Shown here: positions 188-61,634 of the stretch, one piece after another
How positions within the stretch are numbered: the first letter of the stretch is position 1
Layout: each line of letters starts with the position of its first letter
Assembly (NCBI RefSeq): GCF_036971445.1
Contig: NW_027211801.1
Coordinates: 620,001-684,000, forward strand
Origin: Narcine bancroftii
Taxonomy: Eukaryota
DNA length: 64,000 nt
Direction of reading: 5' to 3'
The notes under the pieces: generated by a model
Databases searched by the model: none
Told to the model about the DNA's origin: nothing
What the model saw: only the letters and a program-made list of their open reading frames with translations
Position numbers and translations under genes: made by a program

Positions 188-2699
188 TGTGAGAGATGAG
201 TAAAACTGATATTCAAATATGAACATGAAGAAACTAAAATTGATACATGGATAAATGTATGAAGCCAGTACAAACAGGATGAGACATGGATATTAGAATG
301 CAGGAAGCAGAATCAGTCTGAGTAAGATAAGGATCTCTTAGCCTTTAGACAGAATCAGCAAGTTCACTGTATGAATGAGATGAGGAGAGATAATTGTTAA
401 TAGAATGTAGGAAGTAGAGTTAGTATGAAAGAGATAAGGGTCTCCTAGCGCTAGACAGAAGTACCAAGTTCTACATATATAATTAGTAAGCCTTACACAG
501 ATTTATCAAGTTATGTATATTAAATCAGTAAACCCTAGACAGGATTAGCGAACTCTGCATATGAAGAGACTGTAGCTGAGAGTCGGAAAGGTGTGAATGG
601 GGACAAGGGCAAGGTTGTGAATAAGGACAATGAGGATAATGACATGAGATGACACCAACAGGATACCCCCTGGTCCCCCAAGTTCACAGAAATAGCACGT
701 AGGCAGGCAGGATTACTTAATGCCAAACCTCTCCAGGAGGCAGAAGAATGTAAGGGGGAGGGTATTCCTATACTGAAATGAACTGTATAAAAGTTGGGTG
801 AGCCCCAGTGTATGTGTGTATTCCCATGGTAAGGGGAAGCACCCAACTTTGCATTGTTGTTTAATAAATGTTCTTTGTTCTCAATTTTTGTCTCGAGCAA
901 TTTCTATGAAAGACCCCAACAATGAAGACGCTGTTTACATCCGGTACCGCACGGATGGCAGTCTCTTCAATCTGAGGCGCCTGCAAGCTCACACCAAGAC
1001 ACAAGAGAAACTTGTCCGTGAACTACTCTTTGCAGACGATGCCGCTTTAGTTGCCCATTCAGAGCCAGCTCTTCAGCGCTTGACGTCCTGCTTTGCGGAA
1101 ACTGCCAAAATGTTTGGCCTGGAAGTCAGCCTGAAGAAAACTGAGGTCCTCCATCAGCCAGCTCCCCACCATGATTACCAGCCCCCCCACATCTCCATCG
1201 GGCACACAAAACTCAAAACGGTCAACCAGTTTACCTATCTTGGCTGCACCATTTCATCAGATGCAAGGATCGACAATGAGATAGACAACAGACTCGCCAA
1301 GGCAAATAGCGCCTTTGGAAGACTACACAAAAGAGTCTGGAAAAACAACCAACTGAAAAACCTCACAAAGATAAGCGTATACAGAGCCGTTGTCATACCC
1401 ACACTCCTGTTCGGCTCCGAATCATGGGTCCTCTACCGGCACCACCTACGGCTCCTAGAACGCTTCCACCAGCGTTGTCTCCGCTCCATCCTCAACATCC
1501 ATTGGAGCGCTTACATCCCTAACGTCGAAGTACTCGAGATGGCAGAGGTCGACAGTATCGAGTCCACGCTGCTGAAGATCCAGCTGCGCTGGATGGGTCA
1601 CGTCTCCAGAATGGAGGACCATCGCCTTCCCAAGATCGTGTTATATGGCGAGCTCTCCACTGGCCACCGTGACAGAGGTGCACCAAAGAAAAGGTACAAG
1701 GACTGCCTAAAGAAATCTCTTGGTGCCTGCCACATTGACCACCGCCAGTGGGCTGATATCGCCTCAAACCGTGCATCTTGGCGCCTCACAGTTTGGCGGG
1801 CAGCATCCTCCTTTGAAGAAGACCGCAGAGCCTACCTCACTGACAAAAGGCAAAAGAGGAAAAACCCAACACCCATCCCCAACCAACCAATTTTCCCCTG
1901 CAACCGCTGCAATCGTGTCTGCCTGTCCCGCATCGGACTTGTCAGCCACAAACGAGTCTGCAGCTGACGTGGACTTTTTACCCCCTCCATAAATCTTCGT
2001 CCGCGAAGCCAAGCCAAAGAAAGAAGACATCTATTTCTAACAAATGGGGACTCGTCCGGGATCACACTCCCTCCACTGACAGAGTGCCCGACGACGGGGG
2101 TAGGTGCACCCCAGCTGATTCAGCTGGACTCACGGACGGAGGGTGATTGGTCAGTGGACGAAGCGAGTGATATCTGAGAAGAGGCATTGAAAACAAACGA
2201 TGAGAGAACGTTAAGGAAGCGGGCTAGAGATTGCTACTGGAACTCGGTAAGAGGAATTCTACTTGCCTGTTAGTATGGGAAGTGTGGGTAGCAAGGAAGA
2301 TAATCCTAGTGAAGGATGTGAGAATCAGATAACCACGTACAGCCCGTTGGGATTGATGTTATCTGACTGGGGCACGCGGAAGACCCATGGAAAGAACAAA
2401 CTGACCATGGTCAGGTATTGTTGTATAGAATGGGTTAAAAGCCCAATTAAAGGGAGCTCCGAAAACTGGCCAAAGTTCGGATCCGATGATGACTGGATGT
2501 GTCAAGCCTTGAACATCTGGCTCTATCAAAACCAGAAAGATAATCTTGAGAGCAGGGAATATGCAGCCTGCTGGCTCAGGGAACCATTCGATCAATTGGT
2601 TTTGAATGAGAAAGAATGCAAGGACAAGAGAGATGAGGAACATTTTGTCCCTGAATCACAAGGATGGGATGTGTTACATTCCCTTCCTCCACCTTATGC
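188..2699 (+). mobile_element. Truncated class I (gamma/epsilon-like) endogenous retrovirus: 5' LTR, tRNA-Pro PBS and gag start
   Basis: LTR TG(188)...CA(2042) with TATAAAA 786-792 and AATAAA 863-868, interrupted by an RTE. PBS TGGGGACTCGTCCGGGAT 2045-2062 is 17/18 to the tRNA-Pro PBS. The element is absent from the paralogous L1 at about 58985. Confidence 0.88.
906..2027 (+). mobile_element. 5'-truncated RTE-clade LINE inserted in the ERV LTR
   Basis: RT C-terminal ORF (LLFADD, FTYLG, C-terminal CxxC..H) with an AAAG-rich tail. Near-identical to the other RTE copies in the window. Confidence 0.9.
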
Positions 2700-5453: not shown

Positions 5454-5779
5454 CTACACACAGGATAACGACGAGATGGACTCGTGCAGAGGCGAGCTCA
5501 GTGAGCTGTGGCTCACGATGCAGGTATAGCTGGAGCCTGTGTTCCAGGCAGTGGCGGACACATGCAGGTAACTGCTCTGCTTGTAGGTCTGGTCAGCATC
5601 AGGGGATGCGACACCCGTCGTCACCCCGCTCTCTGTCTCGACCCCATCCACGCTCCACCGGAGTGACGCGAAGCCTGGCTTAAAGCCGCTCACCAGGCAA
5701 GACAAGGTGGCCGAGCCTGAGTCGGTCTCATTCTGGGAGGGAGGGAGCAGTTGAACCGAGGGTTTCCGAGAGTCGCTAC
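5454..5779 (-). CDS. IgL: Ig light chain gene A, constant (C1-set) exon
   Basis: Acceptor CCCTTCTGCTCTCCCACACAG|GT in phase 1, matching the J donor. Reads SDSRKPSVQLLPPS...ATLSCLVSGFKPG...W...YKQSSYL...WNTGSSYTCIVSH...SCV*, with a penultimate Cys for the heavy-chain disulfide. Spliced CDS 49+363+326 = 738 nt = 245 aa plus stop. Confidence 0.95.
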
Positions 5780-10000: not shown

Positions 10001-10573
10001 AAAGGATTTTGGGATCATAGTTGATCAGGAATTTTGCGGTAATTTATGTAAAGATAGTGTGACTAAGATTGTTAATATGAGATAAGTTGCTTCATTATAA
10101 CTTTATACATCAGTGATATTTAACCCCTGAAAAATTAAAGAGATATAATTTAATTTCTTCAGATTTATGTTTCAGGTGTCATAAGGAAGTAGCTTCTTTC
10201 CTACATTCTACTTGGTTATGTGATTATGGTGAAACATTATTGGACACAACTTCAAAAGTTTGTAGGGAAAGTTCTTAAGAATAAATTGGACCCAACATGA
10301 TTTTTGTGAAGTGATGTTAAAATGTTGACCTTGGAATTGAGATTAACTGGGTATCAAATTGCGTTGGGGGCCCACACACACCAATCTGGGGGTCGGGATG
10401 AGGTGACTTTCCCAGGTCAAACCTCATCTGGCTGAGGGGGATCTGCAGAATCTGTCTCCAGCGCGGGGTCTCGACAGTTTACTGACATCTTCTGTGCTCA
10501 CGGACAAAATGAATGAAAAATAGATTCTCAGATCTGGAAATAAAAGTCCGAAAAGTTCCTTGACTTCACTCAC

Positions 10574-10936
10574 TTGTTACGATCAACGTGGATCCAGGGC
10601 CGAACACCCAGGCATTTGCTGAACTGTCCCATGTAGCACAGTAGTAGACGGCGGAGTCTCCAGCTTCCAGGCTGCGGATGGTCAAGGTGTGAGTGTTGGC
10701 CGAGGAGTCTCTGGACGGGGCGAATCGGCTGGTGAACCCGCTGCCTCGGTAGATATCATTATTCGGATATTGTACCAATACCCACTCTGGAGCTTCTCCG
10801 GGTCGCTGTCGGTACCAGCTCATGTAGTAACTTGCAACGCTCCCCCCCTCCAGCCGACACTCCAAGTGGACGGTCTGTCCCGCAGAGAGTGGGTCGGACA
10901 TTGGGGTCTGATGGAGTTTAACCAACGCCAGGACAC
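10574..10936 (-). CDS. IgL: Ig light chain gene A, germline-joined V-J exon (type I / NS5 / sigma-cart-like)
   Basis: Acceptor TTTTTTGTGTCATTGCAG|GT. Open frame GVLA-LVKLHQTPMSDPLSAGQTVHLEC...WYRQRPGEAP...DSAVYYC-ATWDSSANAWV-FGPGSTLIVT, then donor A|GTGAGT. V-set Cys/Trp/YYC and the J motif FGxG are contiguous with no RSS between them. QTPxSDPxSAG, the long CDR2 (IYRGSGFT) and RFxPSRD resemble shark/skate type I light chains as I recall them. Confidence 0.95.
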
Positions 10937-11063
10937 CTGCAATGACACAAAAAACACCGCAGCGGGTGAACGCGGGAAAACAAGGCGCGGGGAAAAGGTC
11001 CAACCCGGCTCAGTTAGCGGGGAGGGGGATAGCATCAACGGGGAATGGCCCCCGACTTCTCAC

Positions 11064-11112
11064 CTGGAACCCAGACCATCAGAGACCACAGGAGACCCAG
11101 CGCAGAGACCAT
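11064..11112 (-). CDS. IgL: Ig light chain gene A, leader exon (MVSALGLLWSLMVWVP-G)
   Basis: ATG at 11112, 16 hydrophobic codons plus 1 nt, then donor CCAG|GTGAGA. A 127-nt intron leads to the V acceptor. This is the classic split Ig leader. Confidence 0.93.
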
Positions 11113-11204
11113 CGCTCCGGACAGGTGAAGACAAAGCAGCGCGATTGGGTTCCTCGAACTCCCGGAGTCGCTCCGGTTCTCCCGTCTGCAAAGCGGCTCC
11201 GGAG

Positions 11205-11370
11205 GCTCTGTTTAAGAAGGGGTGTCCATGAGGGGGAGGGGTCAGGAGGACGCCGTGGGGCGGAGAATCACCCCATCTGGTTGTGGTCCCTGAAATGTTC
11301 TCAGGTCACATACATGACACAACACAGACTTTTTCCCGCGGGAGGGGCAGAATTAGCACTAATGACACAG
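11205..11370 (-). promoter_or_regulatory. Putative IgL V promoter of gene A (TATA-like CTTAAAC about 100 nt upstream of ATG)
   Basis: Position relative to the leader, and homologous sequence (CATAAAC) upstream of leader B. No perfect octamer was seen. Confidence 0.35.
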
Positions 11371-20481: not shown

Positions 20482-20519
20482 TGGTAACGACCAATATCGT
20501 TCCAGGGTCGAACACTTAT
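20482..20519 (-). pseudogene. IgL: IgL cluster B unrearranged pseudo-J segment (*VFDPGTILVVT)
   Basis: Aligns to WVFGPGSTLIVT of gene A. It has TAA at the Trp codon, FGPG changed to FDPG, and a weakened donor (A|GTAGTG versus A|GTGAGT). The downstream intron sequence 20305-20480 matches 10400-10573. Confidence 0.88.
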
Positions 20520-20558
20520 CACTGTGCGATGTTCCAATAGAGAGGACCTCCTAAAATC
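20520..20558 (-). promoter_or_regulatory. J-type recombination signal sequence with 23-bp spacer (cluster B)
   Basis: Plus strand CACTGTG-23 nt-CCTAAAATC (nonamer 6/9 against ACAAAAACC), abutting the J segment. It is 12/23-compatible with the V-RSS and in deletional orientation. Confidence 0.82.
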
Positions 20559-21292: not shown

Positions 21293-21320
21293 GGTTTTTG
21301 TAAAGTGCGTTCTCAATGTG
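21293..21320 (-). promoter_or_regulatory. V-type recombination signal sequence with 12-bp spacer (cluster B)
   Basis: Minus strand CACATTG-AGAACGCACTTT-ACAAAAACC: heptamer 6/7, spacer exactly 12, nonamer 9/9. It is preceded by CCAGCAAAGGT, which resembles the V 3' end of gene A (TCAGCAAATGC). Confidence 0.92.
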
Positions 21321-21377
21321 ACCTTTGCTGGAGGGGTCAGGTTATAATAAATGGGGAATGGCCCCCTGACTTCTCAC

Positions 21378-21426
21378 CTGGAATCCAGACCATCATAGAC
21401 CACAGGAGATGCGGCGCAGAGATCAT
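21378..21426 (-). pseudogene. IgL: IgL cluster B leader exon (MISAPHLLWSMMVWIP-G), intact but with no V exon downstream
   Basis: Paralog of leader A with ATG at 21426 and donor CCAG|GTGAGA. Only 57 nt separate the donor from the V-RSS heptamer. Confidence 0.88.
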
Positions 21427-30413: not shown

Positions 30414-30976
30414 TGTGGTTTCCCCCAATTGCAAGATCGGGCTGGCACATCACACAGCAGCAGACGTGGACAGAGAATTCCAAATCAACTCCCAGGACAA
30501 TGAACCGGTGGGGGTAGAAGATGGAGCAGCATCAGCCCAACAGTCCTAAAATGGCATTGATCCAGCTGCCCAGCTAACTCTGCAGAAACAAGCTGGGGAA
30601 GAAGGGTATTCATATGCATGGACGTTCCTGCCTGCTTTTGTTATTCATCTGGCTGACCCAGTCAATCAGCAAAAATAGCCGGAAATTGAACAGTATAAAA
30701 GCAGCCTTTCCAGCACTAATAATACAGTGAGCTTAACCTGCCACACTGAGTATGTGCGTTTCTTTGTAGCGGTCAGTTACAATTGGTGACCCCGATGGTT
30801 AATAAGGAATCTCAACCTTGCGATGGAGAAGTTGGTCTGAAACTTTCGACCTTCTGCACAGTTCGAAATGGCATGTGTTTTCAGCAGGCAGAGGCTTAGT
30901 TCCAGATCTGGGGCATCACAGCAGAAACCACCTGTAACTACCATGTGATCAGCACCCTGGATCCACAGACTGCAGA

Positions 30977-33900
30977 CAGAGTGGTGTAATGTATAGCCTG
31001 TGTATCCAGTTATATTGTATCATACGTAAGCTCGTATTTTTTGTATTTCTCATCGTTCCAGAACATAACTTCTCCCATGTTTCCTTTTTTATCTTTATAT
31101 TTAAATCTTGTTCCCATTTTTGTTTAGTTTTACCATTTGTTTCCTCATTCTCCTTTTCTTGCAGTTTAATATACATATTTGTTATAAATCTTTTGATTAT
31201 CATTGTATCTGTAATCACATATTCAAAGTTACTTCCCTCTGGTAAACTCAGACTGCTTCCTAATTTGTCCTTCAAATAGGATCTCAATTGGTAATATGCC
31301 AGCACTGTATCTTGAGTTATATTGTATTTATCTTTCATTTGTTCAAAGGATAATAATCTATTTCCTGAAAAACAATTTTCTATTCTTTTGATCCCTTTTA
31401 TCTCCCATTCTCTAAAGGAAAGGTTATCTATTGTAAAAGGGAGTAACTTATTTTGCGTCAATATTAGTTTTGGTAATTGATAATTTGTTTTATTTCTTTC
31501 TACATGAATCTTCTTCCAAATATTGAGTAGATGATATAATACTGGAGAACTTCTATGTTGTACCAATTTTTCATCCCATTTATATAATATGTGTTCAGGT
31601 ATCTTTTCCCCTATTTTATCTAATTCTAATCTGGTCCAATCTGGCTTTTCCCTTGTTTGATAAAAATCTGATAGGTATCTAAATTGTGCGGCTCTATAAT
31701 AATTTTTAAAGTTTGGCAGTTGTTTATACCATTCTGTTAATTTATCTAGTGCTATCCTCGGTTTCCCCCCTTTCCATAAAAATTTCCTTGTTATTTTCTT
31801 TAACTCCTTGAAGAATTTCTCTGTCAGGTGAATTGGCAAGGCCTGAAATAGGTATAATATCCTTGGAAAAAATGTTCATTTTAATACAGTTTATCCTTCC
31901 TATTAGTGTGAATGGTAAATCTTGCCAATGCTCTAAATCATCCTGTAATTTTTTCATTAGTGGATAATAAATGAGTTTATATAGTTGGCCGAGATTTTTA
32001 TTTATTTGTATACCTAGGTATCTTATTGCTTGCATTTGCCATCTAAATGGTGATTCCTTCTTAAATTTTGAGAAATCCACATTATTCATAGGCATTGCTT
32101 CACTTTTATTTACGTTGATCTTGTAACCCGACACTTCTCCATATTCCTTCAATTTCTTATATAATTCTTTTATTGATAGTTCTGGTTCTGTTAAGTATAC
32201 TATAACATCATCCGCAAATAAACTGATTTTATATTCCTTGTCTTTTATTTTTATCCCTTTTATATTATTTTCTGTTCTTATCAATTCTGCTAGTGGTTCT
32301 ATAGCTAACGCGAACAATAAAGGTGATAGTGGGCATCCCTGCCGTGTTGACCTGCTTAAGTTAAATTGCTTTGATACATATCCATTTACTGTCACTTTCG
32401 CCAATGGTCCCTTATATAATGCTTTAATCCAATTAATATACTTCTCTGGTAAACTGAATTTTTGCAATACTTTGAATAAATAATTCCATTCTACTCTGTC
32501 AAAGGCCTTCTCTGCATCTAAAGCAACTGCTACTGTTGGCGCTTTACTCCCTTCTACTGCATGAATTAAGTTAATAAATTTACAAATATTGTCTGTTGTG
32601 CATCTTTTTTTTATAAATCCAGTTTGGTCTAGATTTACCATTTTCAGTACATACTCTGCTAATCTGTTTGCTAATAGTTTAGCTATTATCTTATAATCTG
32701 TGTTAAGTTTTTCAAGCTTTGTTGGGACCAAGGAAAACTGCCTCAGGATCTTCGTGATGCCACCATCATCACCCTGTACAAAAACAAAGGCGAGAAATCA
32801 GACTGCTCAAACTACAGGGGAATCACGTTGCTCTCCATTGCAGGCAAAATCTTCGCTAGGATTCTACTAAATAGAATAATACCTAGTGTCGCCGAGAATA
32901 TTCTCCCAGAATCACAGTGCGGCTTTTGCGCAAACAGAGGAACTACTGACATGGTCTTTGCCCTCAGACAGCTCCAAGAAAAGTGCAGAGAACAAAACAA
33001 AGGACTCTACATCACCTTTGTTGACTTCACCAAAGCCTTCGACACCGTGAGCAGGAAAGGGCTTTGGCAAATACTAGAGCGCATCGGATGTCCCCCAAAG
33101 TTCCTCAACATGATTATACAACTGCACGAAAATCAACAAGGTCAGGTCAGATACAGCAATGAGCTCTCTGAACCCTTCCCCATTAACAATGGCGTGAAGC
33201 AAGGCTGTGTTCTCGCACCAACACTCTTTTCAATCTTCTTCAGCATGATGCTGAACCAAGCCATGAAAGACCCCAACAATGAAGACGCTGTTTACATCCA
33301 GTACCGCACGGATGGCAGTCTCTTCAATCTGAGGTGCCTGCAAGCTCACACCAAGACACAAGAGAAACTTGTCCGTGAACTACTCTTTGCAGACAATGCC
33401 ACTTTAGTTGCCCATTCAGAGCCAGCTCTTCAGCGCTTGACGTCCTGCTTTGCGGAAACTGCCAAAATGTTTGGCCTGGAAGTCAGCCTGAAGAAAACTG
33501 AGGTCCTCCATCAGCCAGCTCCCCACCATGACTACCAGCCCCCCCACATCTCCATCGGGCACACAAAACTCAAAACGGTCAACCAGTTTACCTATCTCGG
33601 CTTCACCATTTCATCAGATGCAAGGATCGACAAAGAGATAGACAACAGACTCGCCAAGGCAAATAGCGCCTTTGGAAGAGTCTGGAAAAACAACCAAATG
33701 AAAAACCTCACAAAGATAAGCGTATACAGAGCCGTTGTCATACCCACACTCCTGTTTGGCTCCGAATCATGGGTCCTCTACCGGCATCACCTACGGCTTC
33801 TAGAACGCTTCCACCAGCGTTGTCTCCGCTCCATCCTCAACATCCATTGGAGCGCTTTCATCCCCAACGTCGAAGTACTCGAGATGGCAGAGGTCGACAG

Positions 33901-36900
33901 CATCGAGTCCACGCTGCTGAAGATCCAGCTACGCTGGATGGGTCACGTCTCCAGAATGGAGGACCATCGCCTTCCCAAGATCGTGTTATATGGCGAGCTC
34001 TCCACTGGCCACCGTGACAGATGTGCACCAAAGAAAAGGTACAAGGACTGCCTAAAGAAATCTCTTGGTGCCTGCCACATTGACCACCGCCAGTGGGCTG
34101 ATATCGCCTCAAACCGTGCATCTTGGCGCCTCACAGTTTGGCGGGCAGCAACCTCCTTTGAAGAAGACCACAGAGCCCACCTCACTGACAAAAGGCAAAG
34201 GAGGAAACACCCAACACCCAACCCCAACCAACCAATTTTCCCCTGCAGCCGCTGCAACCATGTCTGCCTGTCCCGCATCGGACTAATCAGCCACAAACGA
34301 GCCTGCAGCTGATGTGGACTTTTACCCCCTCCATAAATCTTCGTCCGCGAAGCCAAGCCAAAGAAAGACAAAGAAGAATTATTGCTGTTTTACATGAATC
34401 TGGTAAGCTTTGTGTTTTATCAATCTGGTTGATTTCTTCCAGGAGGGGAGGAATTAATAAATCTTTAAATGTTTTATAGAATTCTATTGGGAATCCATCC
34501 TCTCCTGGTGTCTTATTATTTGGTAATTTTTTTATTATCTCTTGTATTTCTACTATTCCAAATGGTTCTGTTAATTTATTTTGTTCCTCTATTTGTAGTT
34601 TTGGTAGTTCAATTTTAGTTAGAAATTCATCTATTTTTCCCTTCTTTCCCTTCGTTTTCAGTTTGGTATAATTGTTCATAGAATTCTCTAAAGTTTTCCT
34701 TGATCTCCTTTGGATTATATGTGATTTGTTTGTCTTTTTTCTTGATGCCAATACCATTTTCTTAGCTTGTTCTGTCTTAAGCTGCCATGTTAGAATTTTG
34801 TGCGTTTTTTCACCTAGTTCATAATATTTCTGTTTTGTCTTCATTATATTCTTCTCCACCTTATATGTTTGTCGTGTTTCATATTTTATTTTTTTATCTG
34901 CCAATTCTCTTCTTTTAGTTGTATCTTCCTTCATTGCTAATTCTTTTTCTATATTTACTATTTCCCTTTCCAACTGCTCTGTTTCCTGATTATAGTCCTT
35001 CTTCATCTTGGTTACATAACTTATTATTTGCCCTCTAATGAATGCTTTCATTGCATCCCATAGTATAAACTTATCTTTCACTGATTCCGTATTTATTTCA
35101 AAATACATTTTAATTTGTCTTTCAATAAATTCTCTAAAATCCTGCCTTTTGAGTAACATGGAGTTTAATCTCCATCTATACATTCTTGGAGGGATGTCCT
35201 CTAACTTTATTGTCAATATTAAGGGTGAACGGTCCGATAATATTCTAGCTTTATATTCTGTTTTTCTTACTCTATCTTGCATACGAGCTGATAACAAAAA
35301 TAGGTCTATTCTTGAGTATGTTTTATGTCTAGCCGAGTAATATGAATATTCCTTTTCCTTTGGGTGTTGTTTCCTCCATATATCCAAAAGTTGCATTTCA
35401 TCCATCGATTTAATTATAAATTTGGTTACTTTGTCCTTTCTGTTAATTTTTTTCCCAGTTTTGTCCATATTTGAATCCAAATTCAGGTTGAAATCCCCTC
35501 CTATTAATATGTTCCCTTGCGTGTTTACCAAAAAAATATCTTGCATAAACTTTTGATCTTCTTCGTTAGGTGAATATACATTGAGTAGATTCCAAAACTC
35601 CGAATATATCTGACATTTTATCATTACATATCTCCCTGCTGGATCTATTATTTCCTCTTCTACTTTAATTGGCACATTTTTACTAATTAATATAGCTACT
35701 CCTCTTGCTTTTGAATTATACGACGCTGCTGTTACGTGTCCTACCCAATCTCTCTTTAATTTCTTGTGCTCCAATTCAGTTAAATGTGTTTCTTGCACAA
35801 ATGCTATATCAATTTTTTTCTTTTTTCAGTAAATTTAGCAGTTTCTTCCTTTTAATTTGGTTATGTAGTCTGTTAATATTTAAAGTCATATAGTTCAGCG
35901 TAGCCATTTTATACTTTGTTTATCTTCCCTTTCGGTTTCTCCATCATTACCTTTCCTTCTTATCCATTTCTGCTTTCTTTTTTTGAACACTTTATAAGAC
36001 AACATTTCTAAAACATCAAACATTTTCCCTATTCTCCAATTTAAAACTTCTTTAACCCCAATCTCCCCTCCCCCTCCTGAGATGTCCTTTATCCCTTGTC
36101 GGACAACCACATCTCCCCTCTCCATTTGGATTTGCGAATTCACTCGCAAACGTCAGCTGATTTTGCAGTGACCGTAACTCCTCCCTACCCAGCCCCCACC
36201 AGAAAAGATTTCAATTTTCATATGTAACAAAGGTCACTCTTTTAATTCCCTCCTTATTCCCTCTATTCCATTTCCTTCCCTTATTAATTCTTGTCTATAC
36301 TCTATATATTTTCCTCTAAATACAGATACATTCATGTATGCACACTATATATATACACACATATACCCCTTTACACACATACATATAGATCGTGGTCATT
36401 TTTACTCTTATTACATGTCTTCATCTCTCTGCTTGTTTTGTAGTTGTTCTGCAAATTTCCTTGCTTCCTCTGGATCCGAGAATAGTCTGTTTTGTTGCCC
36501 TGGAATACTTATTTTAAGTACCGCTGGGTACCTTAACATAAATTTATATCCTTTTTTCCATAAGATCGTTTTCGCTGTATTGAACTCCTTCCTCTTTTCC
36601 AGGAGTTCAAAACTTATGTGTCTTTTTAGTTCGCAGTCTTTTGTCCTCTCGTTACACGTCTTCATCCCTCAGTCTATTTTGTAATTGTTCTGCAAATTTT
36701 CGTGCTTCCTCTGGATCCGAGAATAGTCTGTTTTGCTGTCCTGGAATAAATATTTTCAATACCGCTGGATGCTTTAGTATAAATTTATACCCTTTCTTCC
36801 ATAAAATCGCCTTTGCTGTATTGAACTCCTTTCTCTTCTTCAGGAGTTCAAAACTTATATCTGGATAAATAAAAAATTTTCGCCCTTTGTACTCCAGTGG

Positions 36901-38027: not shown

Positions 38028-41000
38028 CCTGTCAGCACTTATCAATGAGATGCTGTCCCTCCTGGGAGAGGAACAGCCGAGCATCATGTTCGATAAGGCA
38101 TTCCTGGAACAGATACCTGAAGACATCCAACTGCTCCTGGCAGATGCGGATTTCACCGACCACCAGAAAGTTGCAGCACTGGCAGACTTTCTGTGCAAAC
38201 AGAAACAGAAATGCTCGGCTACCGTGAGGCTAGTAAAGAAGCCCCACAATAAGACCAGAGCAGTCCCAAACAAGGAACAGCAGACGAGAGGCAGGAGCAA
38301 GTCCAGCGACAGATGGTGTTTCTTCCACCGGAGATGGGGCACCGAGGCCCACTGATGCCAGTCCCCCTGCAAGTTCCAGGGAAACGACAAGGCCAGCCGT
38401 CACTGATGGCCACGACAGCTGGCCACCAAGAGAGCCTCCTGTACATCTGGGACCTCCTGTCTGGCAGACACTTCCTTCTGGATACAGGAACAGATGCCAT
38501 CTTGATATCCCCGACAGGGTTGCACACTAGGTGCAGGCTATCGGGACCCACGTTGAAGGCTTCCAACAACACCAGTAAATAGACCTTTGGCACTCATAGG
38601 GCCGACCTGCAGTTCGGAGGCAGTCACTTCCCGGTGGATTTCACGCTGGCCGCAATGGTACAACTATTTCTCGGAGCGGATGTCCTGCAAGTCAAGAGCC
38701 TCCTGGTGGACCTTAATGGTAAGCGACTCATCCACATTGAAAACGACCAGACCATCACACTGATGAGCACTAGGTTTCTGGCAATGCATCTGGACTCTGT
38801 CCACAGCTTGGAGGATGTGTTGTCCAAGGTGCTAGCGAGATTCTCAGCAATCATTTCCCCTTAGTTCACAGTGGAGATGCCTCGACATGGCATCACACAT
38901 CACATCCTGACCAAGGGCACATTTCTCCACGCAAGGGCGAGACCACTTCCCCCAGAGAAGCTACAACTGGCTATCGTCGGCTCAACAAAGCCACCACCCT
39001 GGACCACTACCCGGTGCCACACATCCAGGATTTTGCGGCAAACTTGCATGGGGCAACAATATTCTCAAAAGTGGACCTCATGCGAAGATATCACCAGAAT
39101 GTGGAGCATCTTGATGACATCCCTAAGACGCCTAGCATTGCTCCATTTGGGCTGTTCGAGTTCCTGAGAATGCCATTCGGGCTCAAAGATGTGTCACAGA
39201 CATTGCACTGACTGAATGACCCAGTAGGCCGAGACCTGGACGGCACTTTCATCTACCTCAACAATATCCTCGTGGGAAGTAGAACCCAACAGAAGCATCT
39301 TCAGCACCTCTGAAATCTCTGTAGTCATCTGCAGGAGTTCGGCCTCACCATCAACCTGATCAAATGCCAGTTTGCCCTGAACACTATTGACTTCCTGAGC
39401 CACAGGATTACAAAGGACGGGGCCACACCACTGCCTGAAAAGGTAGAGGCCATCCGCAGCTTCCCAAAGACCAGTACAACCAAATATCTGCAGGAGTTTG
39501 TGGGGATGATAAACTTTTAACACAGGTTTATCCAAGCAGTTTCTTGAGTGATGTGCCCTCTGTTCATTTTAATGTCCAGCAAGGAGAAGGACGTGACCTG
39601 GGATGGTGAATCCGCACGTGCGTTTGTGGAAACCAAAGAAGCCCTGGCCAAAGCTGCACTCCTGACCCACCCCAGACCAGATGCACCCATGGCCCTCACA
39701 ATTGATGCCTCAGGAACAGCGATTGGTGGAGACATGGAGCAGCAGATAGAAGGAAGTTTGTACCCACTAGCTTTCTTCAGCAAACATCTGCGGCCCCCCG
39801 AACTAAACTATAGTGTTTTCGATAGAGAGTTGTTGGTGCTGTACTTAGCCATCCGCCACTTCCGGTACTTTCTTGAGGGAAGGGCTTTCCCAGCTTTTGT
39901 GGACCACAAACCACTGACTTTCGCCCTGGCTAAAATCTCCAATCCCTGGTCATCCCACCAACAGAGACTCTTGTCTTACATCTCGGAGTACACCACCAAC
40001 TTCCAGCACATCTTGGGCAAAGACAACATGGTCGCGAACGCCTTGTCGAGACACAGCATCCACTCCCTGGTCAATGGTCTGGACTTTGGAGCCCTGGCAG
40101 AGGCACAGCAGCAGGATGACGAGATCCTGCAGTACAGGACCACTGTCACAGGCCTTCGCCTTCAGGACTTTCCAGTTGTCATAGGTACTACCACCTTCCT
40201 GTGCGACCCTTATGTGGCCACCGGGCAGGTTTGACCTTTTGTCCCAACGGCATGGAGGGGATGAGTTTTTGACTCCAACCATGGGCTGGCACTCCCATCC
40301 ATCAGGAATACTGTATAGCTGGTGACCAGTAAATACATGTGGCATAGATTGCAGAAACAAGTCCGGGGGTGGGCCAAGATATGTACGCAGTGCAAAACAG
40401 CCAAAGTGCACCAACACACCAAGGTCCCCCACCAGCCTTTCGAGACTTTCGAGGTTTGACAACATTCTTGTGGACATAGTGGGACCCTTGCCAGTCTCTC
40501 AGCATTTCTGCTACCTGTTCACAGTGGTTGACTGCTTCACCCGGTGGCCAGAGCAATCCCCGTGGCTGACACATCCACCAGGTCCTGTGCCAAAGCACTC
40601 CTCTCGTCCTGGATTGCAAGATTCGGACTGCCACAGCACATCACTTATGATCGAGGTGCACAGTTCACCTTGAGTTTGTGGACCGACAATGACAACCTGT
40701 GGGGCAGTCAGCTACATCATACGACCCATACCATCCACAAGCCAATGTCATAGTGGAGTATTTCCACAGGCATCTCAAGACTGCCCTCATGACCAGACAC
40801 AAGGGCCTGTTACAGAGTTCTGTGTTGTGTATTGACCTATGTGTTGTGTGGTTTTATGTTAAAAAGTGACAGTTTGCCTTTGAGAGTCAAGGTGAAGGTG
40901 GACTGCAGAAAGTGGGAGACGGACTGGGCATGTGCAGAAGATGGTCGAGAAATTTCTGGACTAGGAAGACAAACCACCCTTGAGTGTGGCTGTGAAGTGG

Positions 41001-52778: not shown

Positions 52779-55737
52779 AATTCTACGTTATTGAATAATT
52801 ACCTATTTTGAAACATTGAATGCAACTATGGTATAAAATAAATAAATTTCTAGGTACTCAAGTGAAAATTTCAGATAAAAGACCTTTGTATCAAAATAAG
52901 ATTATTCCCTTTACACATAATAATCAATTTTGAGGTTATGGGATCAAAATTGTATTAAATTTGTACAAGATTATTATGAAGCAAGTTATTTTATTTCTTT
53001 CCAAAGAGAAATATAATATTCCTTCATATAATCTTTTTGCTTGTTAACAATTTAAAGTTTTATTGTTGGATAATTTTAGACATACTTTACGGTTATCTAG
53101 ATGATTGAAGTTTTAAATTTTACTTACAGAGGGAGGTAAGAAGGGATTTAGATCTGTGATGTATTCTTTATTACAGAATAAAATGTCTAAGTTGGATTTG
53201 CATAAATCTAGGTTGAAATGGGAAAAAAATTAAGGAGTACTTATTCATCAAAATGATTGGTTGAATTTAGTACGACTAAAACTATAAATGTCAGGTATCA
53301 GTTAGTTCATTATACTTTCATTTATCAATTATTTTTAACTCAGGAAAATCTAAGGGGATATAATTTAATTTTTTCAATTTTGAGTTATTGATGTCAGAAG
53401 GAAGTAGGTTCTTTTTTTTTTACATTCTACTTGGTGATGGTAAACACTCCTTGGAAAAGATTTATGGAATTTTTAGAAGTAATTTTGAAAGTGAAATTTT
53501 CATTACATCCTTTAGTATTTTGTTGGGTAACATTAACAGGTTGGGATTAGAATTAAGATTAAATACATGTAAAATTGCCTTTTTGAGATTGGCATTAGCT
53601 GTAGCCAGAAAATGTTTAGCAATTACTTGGAAAAATGAGACTGATTTGAGTATACAGAGATGGGAGATGGAATTGAGGTCTGCTATTTCGTTGGAGAAAG
53701 TAACATAGAATCTACATGATAATTATTTTTTCTATCGTAAAACTTGGGTCCTGTATTTGAATGATGTAGGTTTGAGTTTTTGAATCCCCAGCCGCCCAGT
53801 GTTGATGTTTCTCAAATTCATGGTAATTAACTGAGGAATTTTGTAATTATGGTTAATCTCCTCATTTCTCTTCCTTTCTTTATTGTGGGAGATAGGTTAG
53901 AGGGGGGTGGGGTTGGGTGGGAGAGTTAGCAGGATGGGGGTTTGTAGGGGTTTAGTTTGTATTAAATATACCATGCATGTTTTTATATTATTTTATCTAT
54001 TAATTGTATATTTTTAATATATGTTTCATTGTTTTAATAAATTAAAGTTTCAAAAAAAAATTTGACATGTAGATGGATGGGAGGGGCATAGAGGGCTATG
54101 GTCTGGGTGTAGGATACCGGGTCTTGGGAAAATACTAGGTTGGCATAGAATAGAAGGACCAAAGGGCCAGTTTCTGTTCTGTTAAGTTCTATGGTTCTAC
54201 AGTTTAATTTTTTTCTACCAAAAACATATGCCCCCTCTCCAGCTTGACAACAACTTTCCCCTCACACAGTGCCCAGTACTGAAACCAATACTTCAAATAG
54301 GGCCTCCCCAATGTCTTACACAATAGTTAATTAACCTCCCAACTCTGGGACAACAGTCTGACCACTGAAGGCCAATGTGTCCATGGCCTTATTTAACACC
54401 ATATTTACAGTGGTGCTACTTCCAAGGTTCAAATTAGGTGCACTCCGCGACCCCTCTGCTGTACATCACTTTGGCGTTCAAGTACCTGTCTAAATGCCCC
54501 TTGAGTATTGCCCCTGATCCTGCCTCCATCGTCTCCTCTGGCAGGTTATTCCAGATACCAACCACACTGTGTGTGGAAATATTTACCACTCTGAACCCAA
54601 TTAAATCACTTGCCTCTCATCTTGAACCTGTGTTCTTTAGTTTTAGACACCACCCCTCACCATAGAAATGAGACTTGCTCTCTCCATTATCGAACACTAC
54701 AGCACAAAACAGGTCCGTCAACCCTCATTGTGTTGCTGACCGATATATACCAACCATCAAAAAATGAAACCCTCACAACTTCATAACCCTCAATTTTTCT
54801 TTTATCCATGTGCCTGTCTAAGACTATCTGAAATGCCCCTTATGTTCCATCTTCCACCCCCACCCCTGGGAATGCCTTCCAGGCATCCACAACTCTCAGT
54901 GTAAAAATACTTACCCCTGATGTCTCCCCTAAACTTTTCTCCCTTCACTTTGCAAAGATGTCCCCTGGTGTTTGCTATTCCTGCCCTGGAAAAGAAGGTG
55001 CTGGCTGTCCACCTTAACTATGCCTCTCAGAACATTAGACCACAGAACATTAAAGCATATCAAGAGGCTTTTTGGCCCTTCTCGCCTGTGCTGAGCTATT
55101 ATTCTGCCTAGGCCCATTGATCTACATTCAGTCCATAGCCCCTCCGTAACCCTTCCCATCTACGTTGCCATCCAAATTTTTCTTCAATGTTAAAATTGAG
55201 CCCGTATTCACCAGTTCAGCTGACAGTTCATTTCACATGCCCACCACTCACTTTGCGAAGGAGTTACCCCTCATGTTGCCCCTAAACCTATCCCCTTGCA
55301 CCCTCAACCCATGTCCTATGGTTTGTATGTTGCTTATCCTCAGTTGGAAAAGCTGACCTATATTTTCTCTGTCTGTACCTCTCATAATTTAAAATATCTC
55401 AATCAAATCTCCCCCCATTCTCCTACGCTGCAGGGAATAAATTTCTAACCTGTTTAATCATTCCCTGTAACTCCATTCCTGAGGTCCAATCAACATCCTA
55501 GTAAATCATCTCTGCACTCTTTCTATCCTGTAGTATGTGGCCAAAACTCCACATAATACTCCAGATTTGTGCTCACTAATGTTTTGCACTAATATACCAT
55601 AACATCCCAACTCATGTACTCAATACTTTGATTTCTGAAGGCCATATTTTAATGTCGGTGGAATCTTTTATTCAGAGTTGGTGTCAGTGCTGGGACCTCA
55701 TCACCTAATGATGCCTCCCTTCTGTTCTCCCACACAG

Positions 55738-56063
55738 GTAGAAACTCTCAGAAACCCTCAGTTTTACTGCTCCCACCCTCCCATGATGAGACTGACTCAG
55801 GCTCGGCCACCCTGTCTTGCTTGGTGAGCGGGTTTAAGCCAGGTTTCACATCGCTGTGGTGGAGTGTGGATGGGGTCAACACAGAGAGCGGGGAGATAAT
55901 GGGTGTCGTGTCCCCGGATGCCGACCAGACCTACAAGCAGACCAATTACCCGAGTGTCCCCGCTGCTGCCTGGAACAAAGCCTCCAGCTATACCTGCATT
56001 GTGAGCCACAGCTCGCTGAGCTCGCCTCAGTGCGAGTATATCTCGTCATTATCCTGTGCATAG
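55738..56063 (+). CDS. IgL: Second Ig light chain constant exon, orphan in this window, possibly a pseudogene
   Basis: Acceptor CCCTTCTGTTCTCCCACACAG|GT and a 326-nt open frame RNSQKPSVLLLPPS...SCLVSGFKPG...YTCIVSH...SCA*, the same length as C of gene A. Non-conservative changes: SSYL to TNYP, VTT to EIM, and an extra Cys. AATAAA at 56528-56533. No plus-strand V or J is visible upstream. Confidence 0.85.
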
Positions 56064-59393: not shown

Positions 59394-61305
59394 TTTTTTT
59401 TTAAATTTTTTATTTTTCACACCATAAATCACAATAGCCATGATATACACTTTTTCTTTTCCACACATTTACAGTGACTTTTTCTCCCTCCCCCCTCCCT
59501 CCTCCCAAGCCACCCCCCCACCCCCCCCCCCCTCTCATCCATTTTAGGTATACAATCTAGGTTGCATTAATTCAGTTAGACAATGTTGTCATTCAACAAA
59601 AATACACCAGAAATTCTACTGAGTCCATTCTTTTCTTTTCTTCTCCTTCCATCAACTTAGGTAATGTTTGTTCCCGGTAGGTTTTCGCTATTGTATTTAT
59701 GTAAGGCTCCCATACTTGTTCGAATATTTCAATATTATTTCTTAAACTATATGTTATTTTTTCTAATGGAATACATTTATTCATTTCTATATACCATTGT
59801 TGTATTTTCAAATTATCTTCCAATTTCCAGGTTGACATAATACATTTTTTTGCTACGGCTAGGGCTATCTTGACAAATCTTTTTTGTGCATCTTCCAAGT
59901 CAATTCCAAATTCTTTATTTTTTATGTTACTTAGGAGAAAGATCTCTGGATTCTTTGGTATATTGTTTTCTGTTATTTTATTTAATATCTGATTGAGATC
60001 ATCCCAAAATTTTTCTACTCTCTCACATGTCCAGATTGCATGAATTGTTGTTCCCCTTTCTTTTTTACATCGAAAACATCTATCAGATACTGTTGGGTCC
60101 CATTTATTTAACTTTTGCGGTGTAATGTATAGTCTGTGTAACCAATTATATTGTATCATACGCAGCCTCGTATTTATTGTATTTCTCATCGTTCCAGAGC
60201 ATAACTTCTCCCATGTTTCCTTTTTTATCTTTATATTTAAATCTTGTTCCCATTTTTGTTTAGTTTTACCATTTGTTTCCTCATTTTCCTTTTCTTGCAG
60301 ATTAATATACATATTTTTTATAAATCTTTTGATTAACATTGTATCTGTAATCACATATTCAAGGTTACTTCCCTCTGGTAAACAGGAATATGGAGAAGTG
60401 TCGGGATACAAGATAAACGTAAATAAAAGTGAAGCAATGCCTATGAATAACGCGGATTTCTCAAAATTTAAGGAGGAATCCCCATTCAGATGGCAAACGC
60501 AGGCAATAAGATACCTAGGTGTGCAAATAAACAAAAATCTAGGCCAATTATATAAACTCAATTACAATCCACTAATGAAAAAATTACAGGACGATTTAGA
60601 GCATTGGAAAGAGCTACCACTAACACTGATAGGAAGGATAAACTGTATTAAAATGAACATTTTTCCAAGGATACTATACTTATTTCAGGCATTGCCAATA
60701 CAACTGACAGAAAAATTCTTCAAAGAGTTAAAGAAAATAATAAGGAGATTTTTATGGAGAGGGGGGAAACCGAGGATAGCACTAGATAAATTAACAGAAT
60801 GGTATAAACAAGGAGGCTTACAATTGCCAAACTTCAAAAATTATTATAGAGCCGCACAATTAAGGTACCTATCAGATTTTTATCAAACAAGGGAAAAACC
60901 AGACTGGACGAGACTAGAATTAGATAAAATAGGGGAAAAGATACCTGAACACATATTATATAAATGGGATGAAAAATTGGTAGAACATAGAACTTCTCCA
61001 GTATTACACCATCTCCTCAATATATGGAAGAAGAATCATGTAGAAAGAAATAAAATAAATTACCAAATACCAAAACTAATATTGACGCAAAATAAGCTAC
61101 TCCCTTTTACAATAGACAACCTTGCCTTTAGAAAATGGGAAAAAAAAGGGATTAAAAGAATAGAAAATTGTTTTTCAGGAAGTAGATTCTTATCCTTTGA
61201 ACAAATGAGAGATAAGTACAATATAACTGGAGATACAGCGCTGGCATATTACCAGCTGAGATCCTACTTGAAAGATAAATTAGGAAGCAACTTGAGTTTA
61301 CCAGA
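59394..61305 (-). mobile_element. 5'-inverted (twin-primed) L1 insertion
   Basis: Poly(A) and 3' UTR/ORF2 end on minus (59394-60383), upstream ORF2 segment on plus (60384-61305). Perfect 16-bp TSD GGAAAATATTCATCTT at 59378-59393 and 61306-61321. Confidence 0.92.
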
Positions 61306-61634
61306 GGAAAATATTCATCTTGATACAATTCACTAAACCTATTAAAGTTTTAGGTAAATCATTCCATCTATTTAAATCCTCTTCAATTTTATTAAATAAT
61401 GGTAAATACTTTGATTGATGAAGGCCTGTGACATCATTTTCAGGGAATTATGCATCTCTATTCCAAATGAGCAGACAATGTTTTTTAAATTGGGAGAAAA
61501 TTTAAAATACTCAGATACAAATGGTCCTGGGAATCCTTGTGCAGGATCGTCTGAAGGTAAACCTGCAGGTTGAGACGGTGGTGAAGAAGGCAAATGCAAT
61601 GCTGGCAGTCACTTCAAGAAGATTAGAATACAAA

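What the first reader, a model, noticed from the sequence alone, without database searches (positions are those of the whole stretch)
10602..10620. The germline V-J junction has exactly the length of a blunt, untrimmed join
Seen: gene A reads GCAAA-TGCCTGG-GTGTTC, with 7 nt between anchors. Cluster B's V end reads GCAAA-GGT|heptamer and its J start reads heptamer|ATAA-GTGTTC, giving 3+4 = 7 nt. Abutting B's coding ends reproduces A's frame and spacing (PAKV*VF versus SANAWVF). Inference: the germline join involved no net trimming or N-addition, unlike typical somatic joints. Caveat: the 7 nt have diverged and the V anchor is short.
Basis: partly seen in the sequence, partly recalled or inferred. 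Interest (0 to 1): 0.7.

Follow-up and report, generated by a model that had tools for sequence, protein, structure and literature searches.

The report
Ray's pre-joined antibody gene, flush joint
This ray antibody light-chain gene has its V and J parts fused in the chromosome at exactly the summed length of the free ends kept in a broken neighbour, likely from one old germ-line joining with no net loss or gain of bases, a kind of event already described in sharks.

Summary
Gene A, a germline-joined sigma-2 (type I) light chain of a ray, has 7 nt between the anchors; pseudo-cluster B's ends give 3+4. B's V end is real: its last 10 nt match 5 of 11 joined paralogs exactly, the intron at most 7/10. 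Eleven of 12 joined loci in the genome have 7 nt; their majority is GGT-YTGG against B's GGT|ATA(G/A). All likely descend from one old join. The inference is weaker than stated. Only 1 of 4 B copies keeps both ends; B is about 86% identical to A and not its sister. An 11-residue CDR3 is also what 2 of 2 horn-shark cDNA-type records and 3 of 3 teleost relatives show. A flush joint can arise through P-nucleotide microhomology, and manta-ray and stingray relatives have joints 9 nt shorter. Lee et al. 2000 already reported a net-zero germline joint with little N-addition. The scan noted single old joins before, in skate lambda genes. Side finding: near-identical A copies differ almost only in their CDRs.

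The parts
11064..11112 (-). Gene A leader exon (MVSALGLLWSLMVWVP)
   Evidence: 127-nt GT-AG intron 10937-11063 skipped in contigs of two runs guessed to be RNA
10574..10936 (-). Gene A germline-joined VJ exon, sigma-2/type I, in frame, no RSS
   Evidence: Pfam V-set 5.9e-17; 63-67% identical to horn shark light chains
10608..10614 (-). The 7-nt V-J junction TGCCTGG (codons N-A-W)
   Evidence: varies at 6 of 7 sites among four A copies
5454..5779 (-). Constant exon of gene A
   Evidence: Pfam C1-set 1.8e-21; J-C spliced loose ends in X4, X6 and X12
21378..21426 (-). Cluster B leader exon (open, MISAPHLLWSMMVWIP)
   Evidence: region 82% identical to A's upstream
21321..21330 (-). Last 10 nt of B's V exon, fused to the leader intron by a deletion that removed the rest of V, at an imperfect repeat (7/10)
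21293..21320 (-). B V-side 12-spacer RSS (CACATTG / ACAAAAACC)
20520..20558 (-). B J-side 23-spacer RSS, nonamer degenerate (3 mismatches)
20482..20519 (-). B J segment, decayed (TAA where joined genes read TGG)
   Evidence: J plus downstream 83% identical to A

Best explanation
Gene A is a light-chain gene whose V and J are fused in the chromosome, likely the descendant of one old RAG-type germ-line join that left no net gain or loss of bases. Shown: the fused gene, its split V-deleted neighbour with 12/23 signals, the equal length in 11 of 12 joined loci, and spliced leader-V and J-C contigs in runs guessed to be RNA. Inferred: the ancestral ends were V ...GGT and J ATGG...; RAG cut at both heptamers; the hairpins were opened and joined without TdT. 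Because V ended in T and J began with A, the P nucleotides of the two ends pair over 2 nt (TA) and would steer the join to the flush product, so true blunt ligation is not needed. The joined gene then duplicated into A, P and C11b lineages, and the CDR codons, junction included, diversified afterwards while length was kept.
For: 11 of 12 joined loci carry the anchor and exactly 7 nt; column majority G,G,T,T/C,T,G,G. V end GGT is intact in 5 of 11. In a 479-column tree of flanks and J (junction left out), A+P+C11b form one side against B+C11a (88/89 support; 92), and an A+B clade is rejected (p-AU 0.019). Contigs of three other organisms lie over the junction without indels; listed differences are the silent 10614 change in all three and the silent 10611 change (J start A) in two, so the join is older than the A copies. 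Enumeration: with these ends, 4 of 16 routes with 2-3 nt homology give the flush product, all through P nucleotides. Hairpins open mostly at +2 and P nucleotides supply terminal homology in N-less joints (PMC2175297, passages). No target-site duplication flanks B's signals, as expected if joined came from split.
Against: The base at the joint is C/T in 9 of 11 joined loci, not B's A. B's J start is decayed (ATAA, ATAG); ATGG is inferred, and A2's ATAC would fit an ATAC start instead. Only 1 of 4 B copies keeps both ends. The tree is unrooted, its key branch is not starred, and P+B is not rejected (p-AU 0.12). The 11 loci are about 5 lineages, and half may be alleles. In one search only X12 bridges the junction by the 31-letter rule, and 14 difference rows were not shown. 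The other 12 of 16 homology routes give -5 or -6 nt. No intact split type I cluster was found in G000 for a direct test.
Confidence: 0.6

Rival explanations
1. One old join, but with trimming balanced by P or N nucleotides; the length matches because selection kept the usual 11-residue CDR3.
For: The joint base differs from B's. CDR3 is 11 residues in 2 of 2 horn-shark cDNA-type records and 3 of 3 teleost relatives. Lee et al. preferred this route (2 P, 2 deleted) for the net-zero R7 joint. Horn-shark split V ends read 3-4 nt longer than B's, judged from protein read-through into the heptamer, so end length varies between clusters.
Against: V's last three bases and J's TGG are both retained in the P class, leaving room for about one exchanged base. 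That base is a silent third position (Val), and ATGG is seen in C11a and listed for X10 and X12.
Confidence: 0.25
2. Several independent germ-line joins, some recent and with N nucleotides, all filtered to the same length.
For: The four A copies have four junctions; A3 and A4 differ at 5 of 7 junction bases though their flanks differ by about 0.17%. A4 keeps B's GGT and A2 keeps B's ATA. Nurse shark NS4 had at least five separate joins.
Against: CDR1 and CDR2 vary in the same way (3 of 39 and 10 of 33 sites, against 1 of 258 in framework), so a CDR-directed process acts regardless of joining. No split A-type V was found. An N-A-W junction like A1's is indicated in other organisms at roughly 88-95% identity.
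Confidence: 0.12
3. The match is a coincidence (B's 'V end' is intron), or B arose from a joined gene by insertion of RSS-bounded DNA.
For: The intron resembles the V end at 7/10 in register in the P class.
Against: 10/10 match to V ends, directly followed by a 12-spacer RSS with a perfect nonamer. No 3-5 nt duplication around B's signals. Horn shark type I genes are split (PMC5192425, passage).
Confidence: 0.03

Closest known systems
Germline-joined NS4 (kappa) genes of nurse shark, esp. R7 against split S10 (Lee et al. 2000, PMC2193156)
   Same: Joined and split clusters of one isotype in one genome; RSS removed cleanly; a joint of net-zero length readable as blunt or as P plus trimming; little sign of TdT.
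   Different: Here the isotype is sigma-2, the split partner is a V-deleted pseudogene about 86% identical (NS4 pairs up to 99%), and one old join is favoured over five separate ones.
Skate type I (sigma-2) light chains (Raja erinacea, PMC2192082, abstract only)
   Same: Germline-joined, expressed, with differences between germline clusters concentrated in CDRs and replacement above silent changes.
   Different: At least 89 clusters and no split gene reported in skate; here 4 copies with open VJ frames plus four relic split clusters that keep both RSS (J side damaged in two).
Nurse shark NS5 / horn shark type I (sigma-2, sigma-cart)
   Same: V-J-C cluster; 63-67% identity to horn-shark records; NS5-2 is drawn with a 12- and a 23-spacer RSS; nurse shark has both split and joined NS5 genes.
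   Different: Those species keep rearranging clusters; none with an intact V was found in this assembly.

Membership tests
Ig light chain sigma-2 (type I, NS5, sigma-cart) | Leader, V-set VJ and one C1-set exon in a cluster | tested here: met
   spliced contigs
Ig light chain sigma-2 (type I, NS5, sigma-cart) | Closer to horn-shark type I-like chains than to other isotypes | tested here: met
   63-67% to horn shark records against 42% or less to other V families in G000; the sources name them only 'lambda-like', so the type I label rests on my recall that these horn-shark cDNAs are type I
Ig light chain sigma-2 (type I, NS5, sigma-cart) | Placement in a rooted isotype tree with reference NS5 | not tested
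   no nurse-shark NS5 sequence was returned or 33
Ig light chain sigma-2 (type I, NS5, sigma-cart) | V 12-spacer and J 23-spacer RSS in split members | tested here: met
   cluster B; the NS5-2 legend names a 12- and a 23-spacer RSS
RAG-made germline-joined Ig gene | VJ fused in genomic DNA with leader intron kept and no RSS remnant | tested here: met
   DNA-type runs X1 and X8 hold intron and junction variants
RAG-made germline-joined Ig gene | Split relatives without target-site duplication; joined state derived | tested here: inconclusive
   no duplication in B and sharks are split, but the tree is unrooted
RAG-made germline-joined Ig gene | Hairpin footprint (P nucleotides) at the joint | tested here: inconclusive
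   flush and P-guided products are identical for these ends
RAG-made germline-joined Ig gene | RAG activity without TdT in germ cells | not testable with these tools
   needs expression data from ray gonad or early embryo

The most novel reading that the evidence does not exclude
The ray germ line keeps editing these pre-joined genes with lymphocyte machinery: copies that are 99.8% identical over 20 kb differ at 15 nt in the 372-nt VJ stretch, all in CDRs, 11 of them adjacent to another, either by AID-type tandem hypermutation in germ cells or by fresh RAG joins. The relic split clusters beside them record the original ends.
Probability: 0.1. Interest if true: 0.75.

Novelty: new member of a known kind. 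Interest (0 to 1): 0.3.

Why it matters
Skate type I genes were reported as all joined, so the ends from which batoid genes were made could not be read there. Cluster B is a fossil of those ends in an electric ray. It supports 'joined came from split, cut at the RSS, little or no TdT' for a second isotype, and it shows why a flush joint need not mean blunt ligation. It adds a data point to a 25-year-old result rather than a new mechanism. The CDR-only divergence of near-identical copies is the part a specialist might follow up.

Tried and rejected
Protein search at near length with E<=1e-30 found nothing; the longer-length search gave 19 proteins. The 50% library added a few relatives, of which I read 6 of 150. 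No intact split type I V was found by protein, DNA or pattern search of G000; these give lower bounds. No listed holder run is on record as RNA; X4, X6 and X12 are guesses, though they show intron skips or exon-to-exon loose ends. AID hotspot test: 9 of 21 variable against 20 of 84 invariant CDR sites, p=0.10 and biased upward, so no support. Adjacent differences exceed shuffles in 4 of 6 pairs, but a few hot codons under selection would do the same. C11a (L010) was dropped from the 7-nt count: it lacks the 5' anchor and is 8 nt shorter. The idea that it holds a piece of B-type spacer DNA got no BLAST support. Not held: Fleurant 2004, Shamblott and Litman 1989, Hsu 2016, Criscitiello and Flajnik 2007, so no somatic NS5 length distribution or shark coding-end DNA was seen; these papers and the unseen body of PMC2192082 may already tabulate such joints. 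No supplements were opened. No fold or complex job was needed.

Full report
What is there. The window holds an immunoglobulin light-chain cluster on the minus strand: leader 11112-11064, a 127-nt intron, a fused VJ exon 10936-10574 and a C exon 5779-5454. The closest named protein, P0002 (source name Narcine bancroftii), is 93% identical, and its VJ reads as paralog A2 does, so this is an electric ray or close kin. Horn-shark chains are 63-67% identical; I assign the gene to sigma-2 (type I, NS5), partly from recall of those records. Contigs of two runs guessed to be RNA skip the leader intron and run from J into the C exon, so A-type genes appear to be transcribed and spliced. Ten kb upstream lies cluster B: promoter and leader 82% identical to A's, then 10 nt of V end, a 12-spacer RSS, about 800 nt, a 23-spacer RSS and a decayed J.

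The observation. A has 7 nt between GCAAA and GTGTTC; B's ends give 3+4. It is not: the 10 nt before the heptamer match the V end of 5 of 11 joined paralogs exactly and the others at 8-9 of 10, whereas the intron in register scores 4-7 of 10. The 7/10 likeness probably explains where the deletion of B's V broke (inference).

The family in this genome. A protein search of G000 gave 87 matches; the 14 rows at 65% identity or more collapse to 12 loci, all joined. They are four A copies, six pseudogenes (P class: 36-nt insert in CDR2, leader donor GT to TT) and two on another contig (C11a, C11b). Eleven have the anchor and exactly 7 nt: TGCCTGG, CGAATAC, TGTCTGG, GGTGCTC, AGTTTGG twice, GGTTTGG twice, GGTCTGG twice, GGATGGG. 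C11a lacks the anchor, is 8 nt shorter and ends ATGG before GTGTTC. There are four B copies: V side 3 nt in three, 2 nt in one; J side ATAA, ATAG, and unreadable in two. The whole set on this contig is doubled at about 700 kb offset, so the counts are not independent. No intact split V was found.

Reading the joint. The column majority of the 11 junctions is GGT-YTGG. B2's ATAG is one change from ATGG, and Trp-Val-Phe-Gly also starts J in two teleost relatives, so ATGG is the likely ancestral J start (inference). Four P-class loci match GGT+ATGG at 6 of 7; the one difference is the joint base, a silent third position. In runs of three other organisms, contigs lie over the junction without indels; the listed changes are silent, and two carry A at the J start (only X12 bridges formally, 14 rows hidden). 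Run X8 of another organism holds the 10612 and 10614 changes of the P-class junction. A flank tree without the junction puts A+P+C11b on one side (88/89), rejects A+B (p-AU 0.019) and does not reject P+B (0.12); it has no outgroup. One old join is the simplest reading, with B a distant proxy (about 86% identical), not A's parent.

Mechanism. RAG cleavage makes hairpins, opened mostly 2 nt past the tip, and P nucleotides often supply the terminal homology in joints without N regions (PMC2175297, passages). With V ending in T and J starting with A, the two P extensions pair. Among 16 enumerated routes with 2-3 nt homology, 4 give the flush product and 12 give -5 or -6. A blunt-looking joint therefore does not show blunt ligation, and one trimmed plus one added base is not excluded either.

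Against over-reading. CDR3 is 11 residues in both horn-shark cDNA-type records (P0003, P0007) and in three teleost relatives, 10 in one unnamed protein, and 8 in all 8 named Mobula and Hemitrygon proteins plus 2 unnamed ones; 5 records read through split V ends and could not be scored. So the length equals a usual length for the isotype, and other rays carry joints 9 nt shorter, whether by a separate trimmed join or a later deletion. Gene A's own junction is poor evidence: among the four A copies 21 of 105 CDR sites vary, 6 of 7 in the junction, against 1 of 258 framework sites, 13 of 711 nearby non-coding sites and 108 of 1700 distant flank sites. A3 and A4 differ at about 0.17% of 20 kb of flank but at 15 of 372 VJ bases, 9 codons replaced and 2 silent. 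Homogenisation of framework and nearby flanks with diversifying selection on CDR codons is the conservative reading (inference); the AID hotspot test was negative.

What is known. Lee et al. 2000 (PMC2193156; parts 1-4 of 7 read plus the Fig. 7 legend) compared joined and split NS4 genes. [quoted passage not shown] The commentary PMC2193153 (passages) agrees. PMC2192082 (abstract only) reports all skate type I genes joined, with CDR-biased replacement differences. PMC5192425, PMC4279169, PMC2435157, PMC13433984 and PMC12227049 were seen as passages. Fleurant 2004 was seen only as a title in a reference list. Six searches listed no paper on electric-ray light-chain joints or on split type I relics in a batoid; the library lacks most subscription papers. 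The scan's earlier notes describe single old joins in skate lambda genes and nothing near this place.

Verdict. Observation confirmed; interpretation partly supported. A new, reasonably well-documented instance of a known process, with a useful fossil of the pre-join ends. Interest 0.3.

Noticed in passing
window 10574-10936 against L002-L004: Four A copies differ almost only in CDRs (21 of 105 sites; framework 1 of 258); A3 and A4 differ at 15 VJ bases with flanks about 0.17% apart.
   Followed up: partly
G000:C12:436000-708000 and 1137000-1391000: The whole light-chain set is doubled at about 700 kb offset: recent segmental duplication or two haplotypes in tandem; not resolved.
   Followed up: partly
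window 10100-11300: Non-coding DNA next to gene A is more uniform across the four copies (13 of 711 sites) than distant flank (108 of 1700), a hint of gene conversion.
   Followed up: partly
window 55737-56057 (+): A second sigma-2 C exon, 78% identical in protein to A's, with no V or J partner seen in the window.
   Followed up: no
L005-L009, L054: Six joined pseudogenes share a 36-nt insertion in CDR2 and a leader donor changed from GT to TT.
   Followed up: partly
L010 (G000:C11:190399729-190400037): Aberrant joined type I pseudogene, 8 nt short at CDR3, grouping with split cluster B in the flank tree; possibly a separate join or deletion.
   Followed up: partly
P0004-P0006, P0008, P0012, P0014-P0016: Mobula and Hemitrygon relatives all have an 8-residue CDR3; CDR2 motif EHQPDND is shared between Mobula P0005 and paralog A2.
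   Followed up: no
L004 leader intron: Copy A4 has a 28-nt deletion just after the leader that keeps a GT donor.
   Followed up: no
window 777-1967, 30949-35825, 32678-34312, 38200-40700, 59593-61336: Long retroelement-like reading frames (LINE- and LTR-type by eye, not searched) fill the rest of the window.
   Followed up: no
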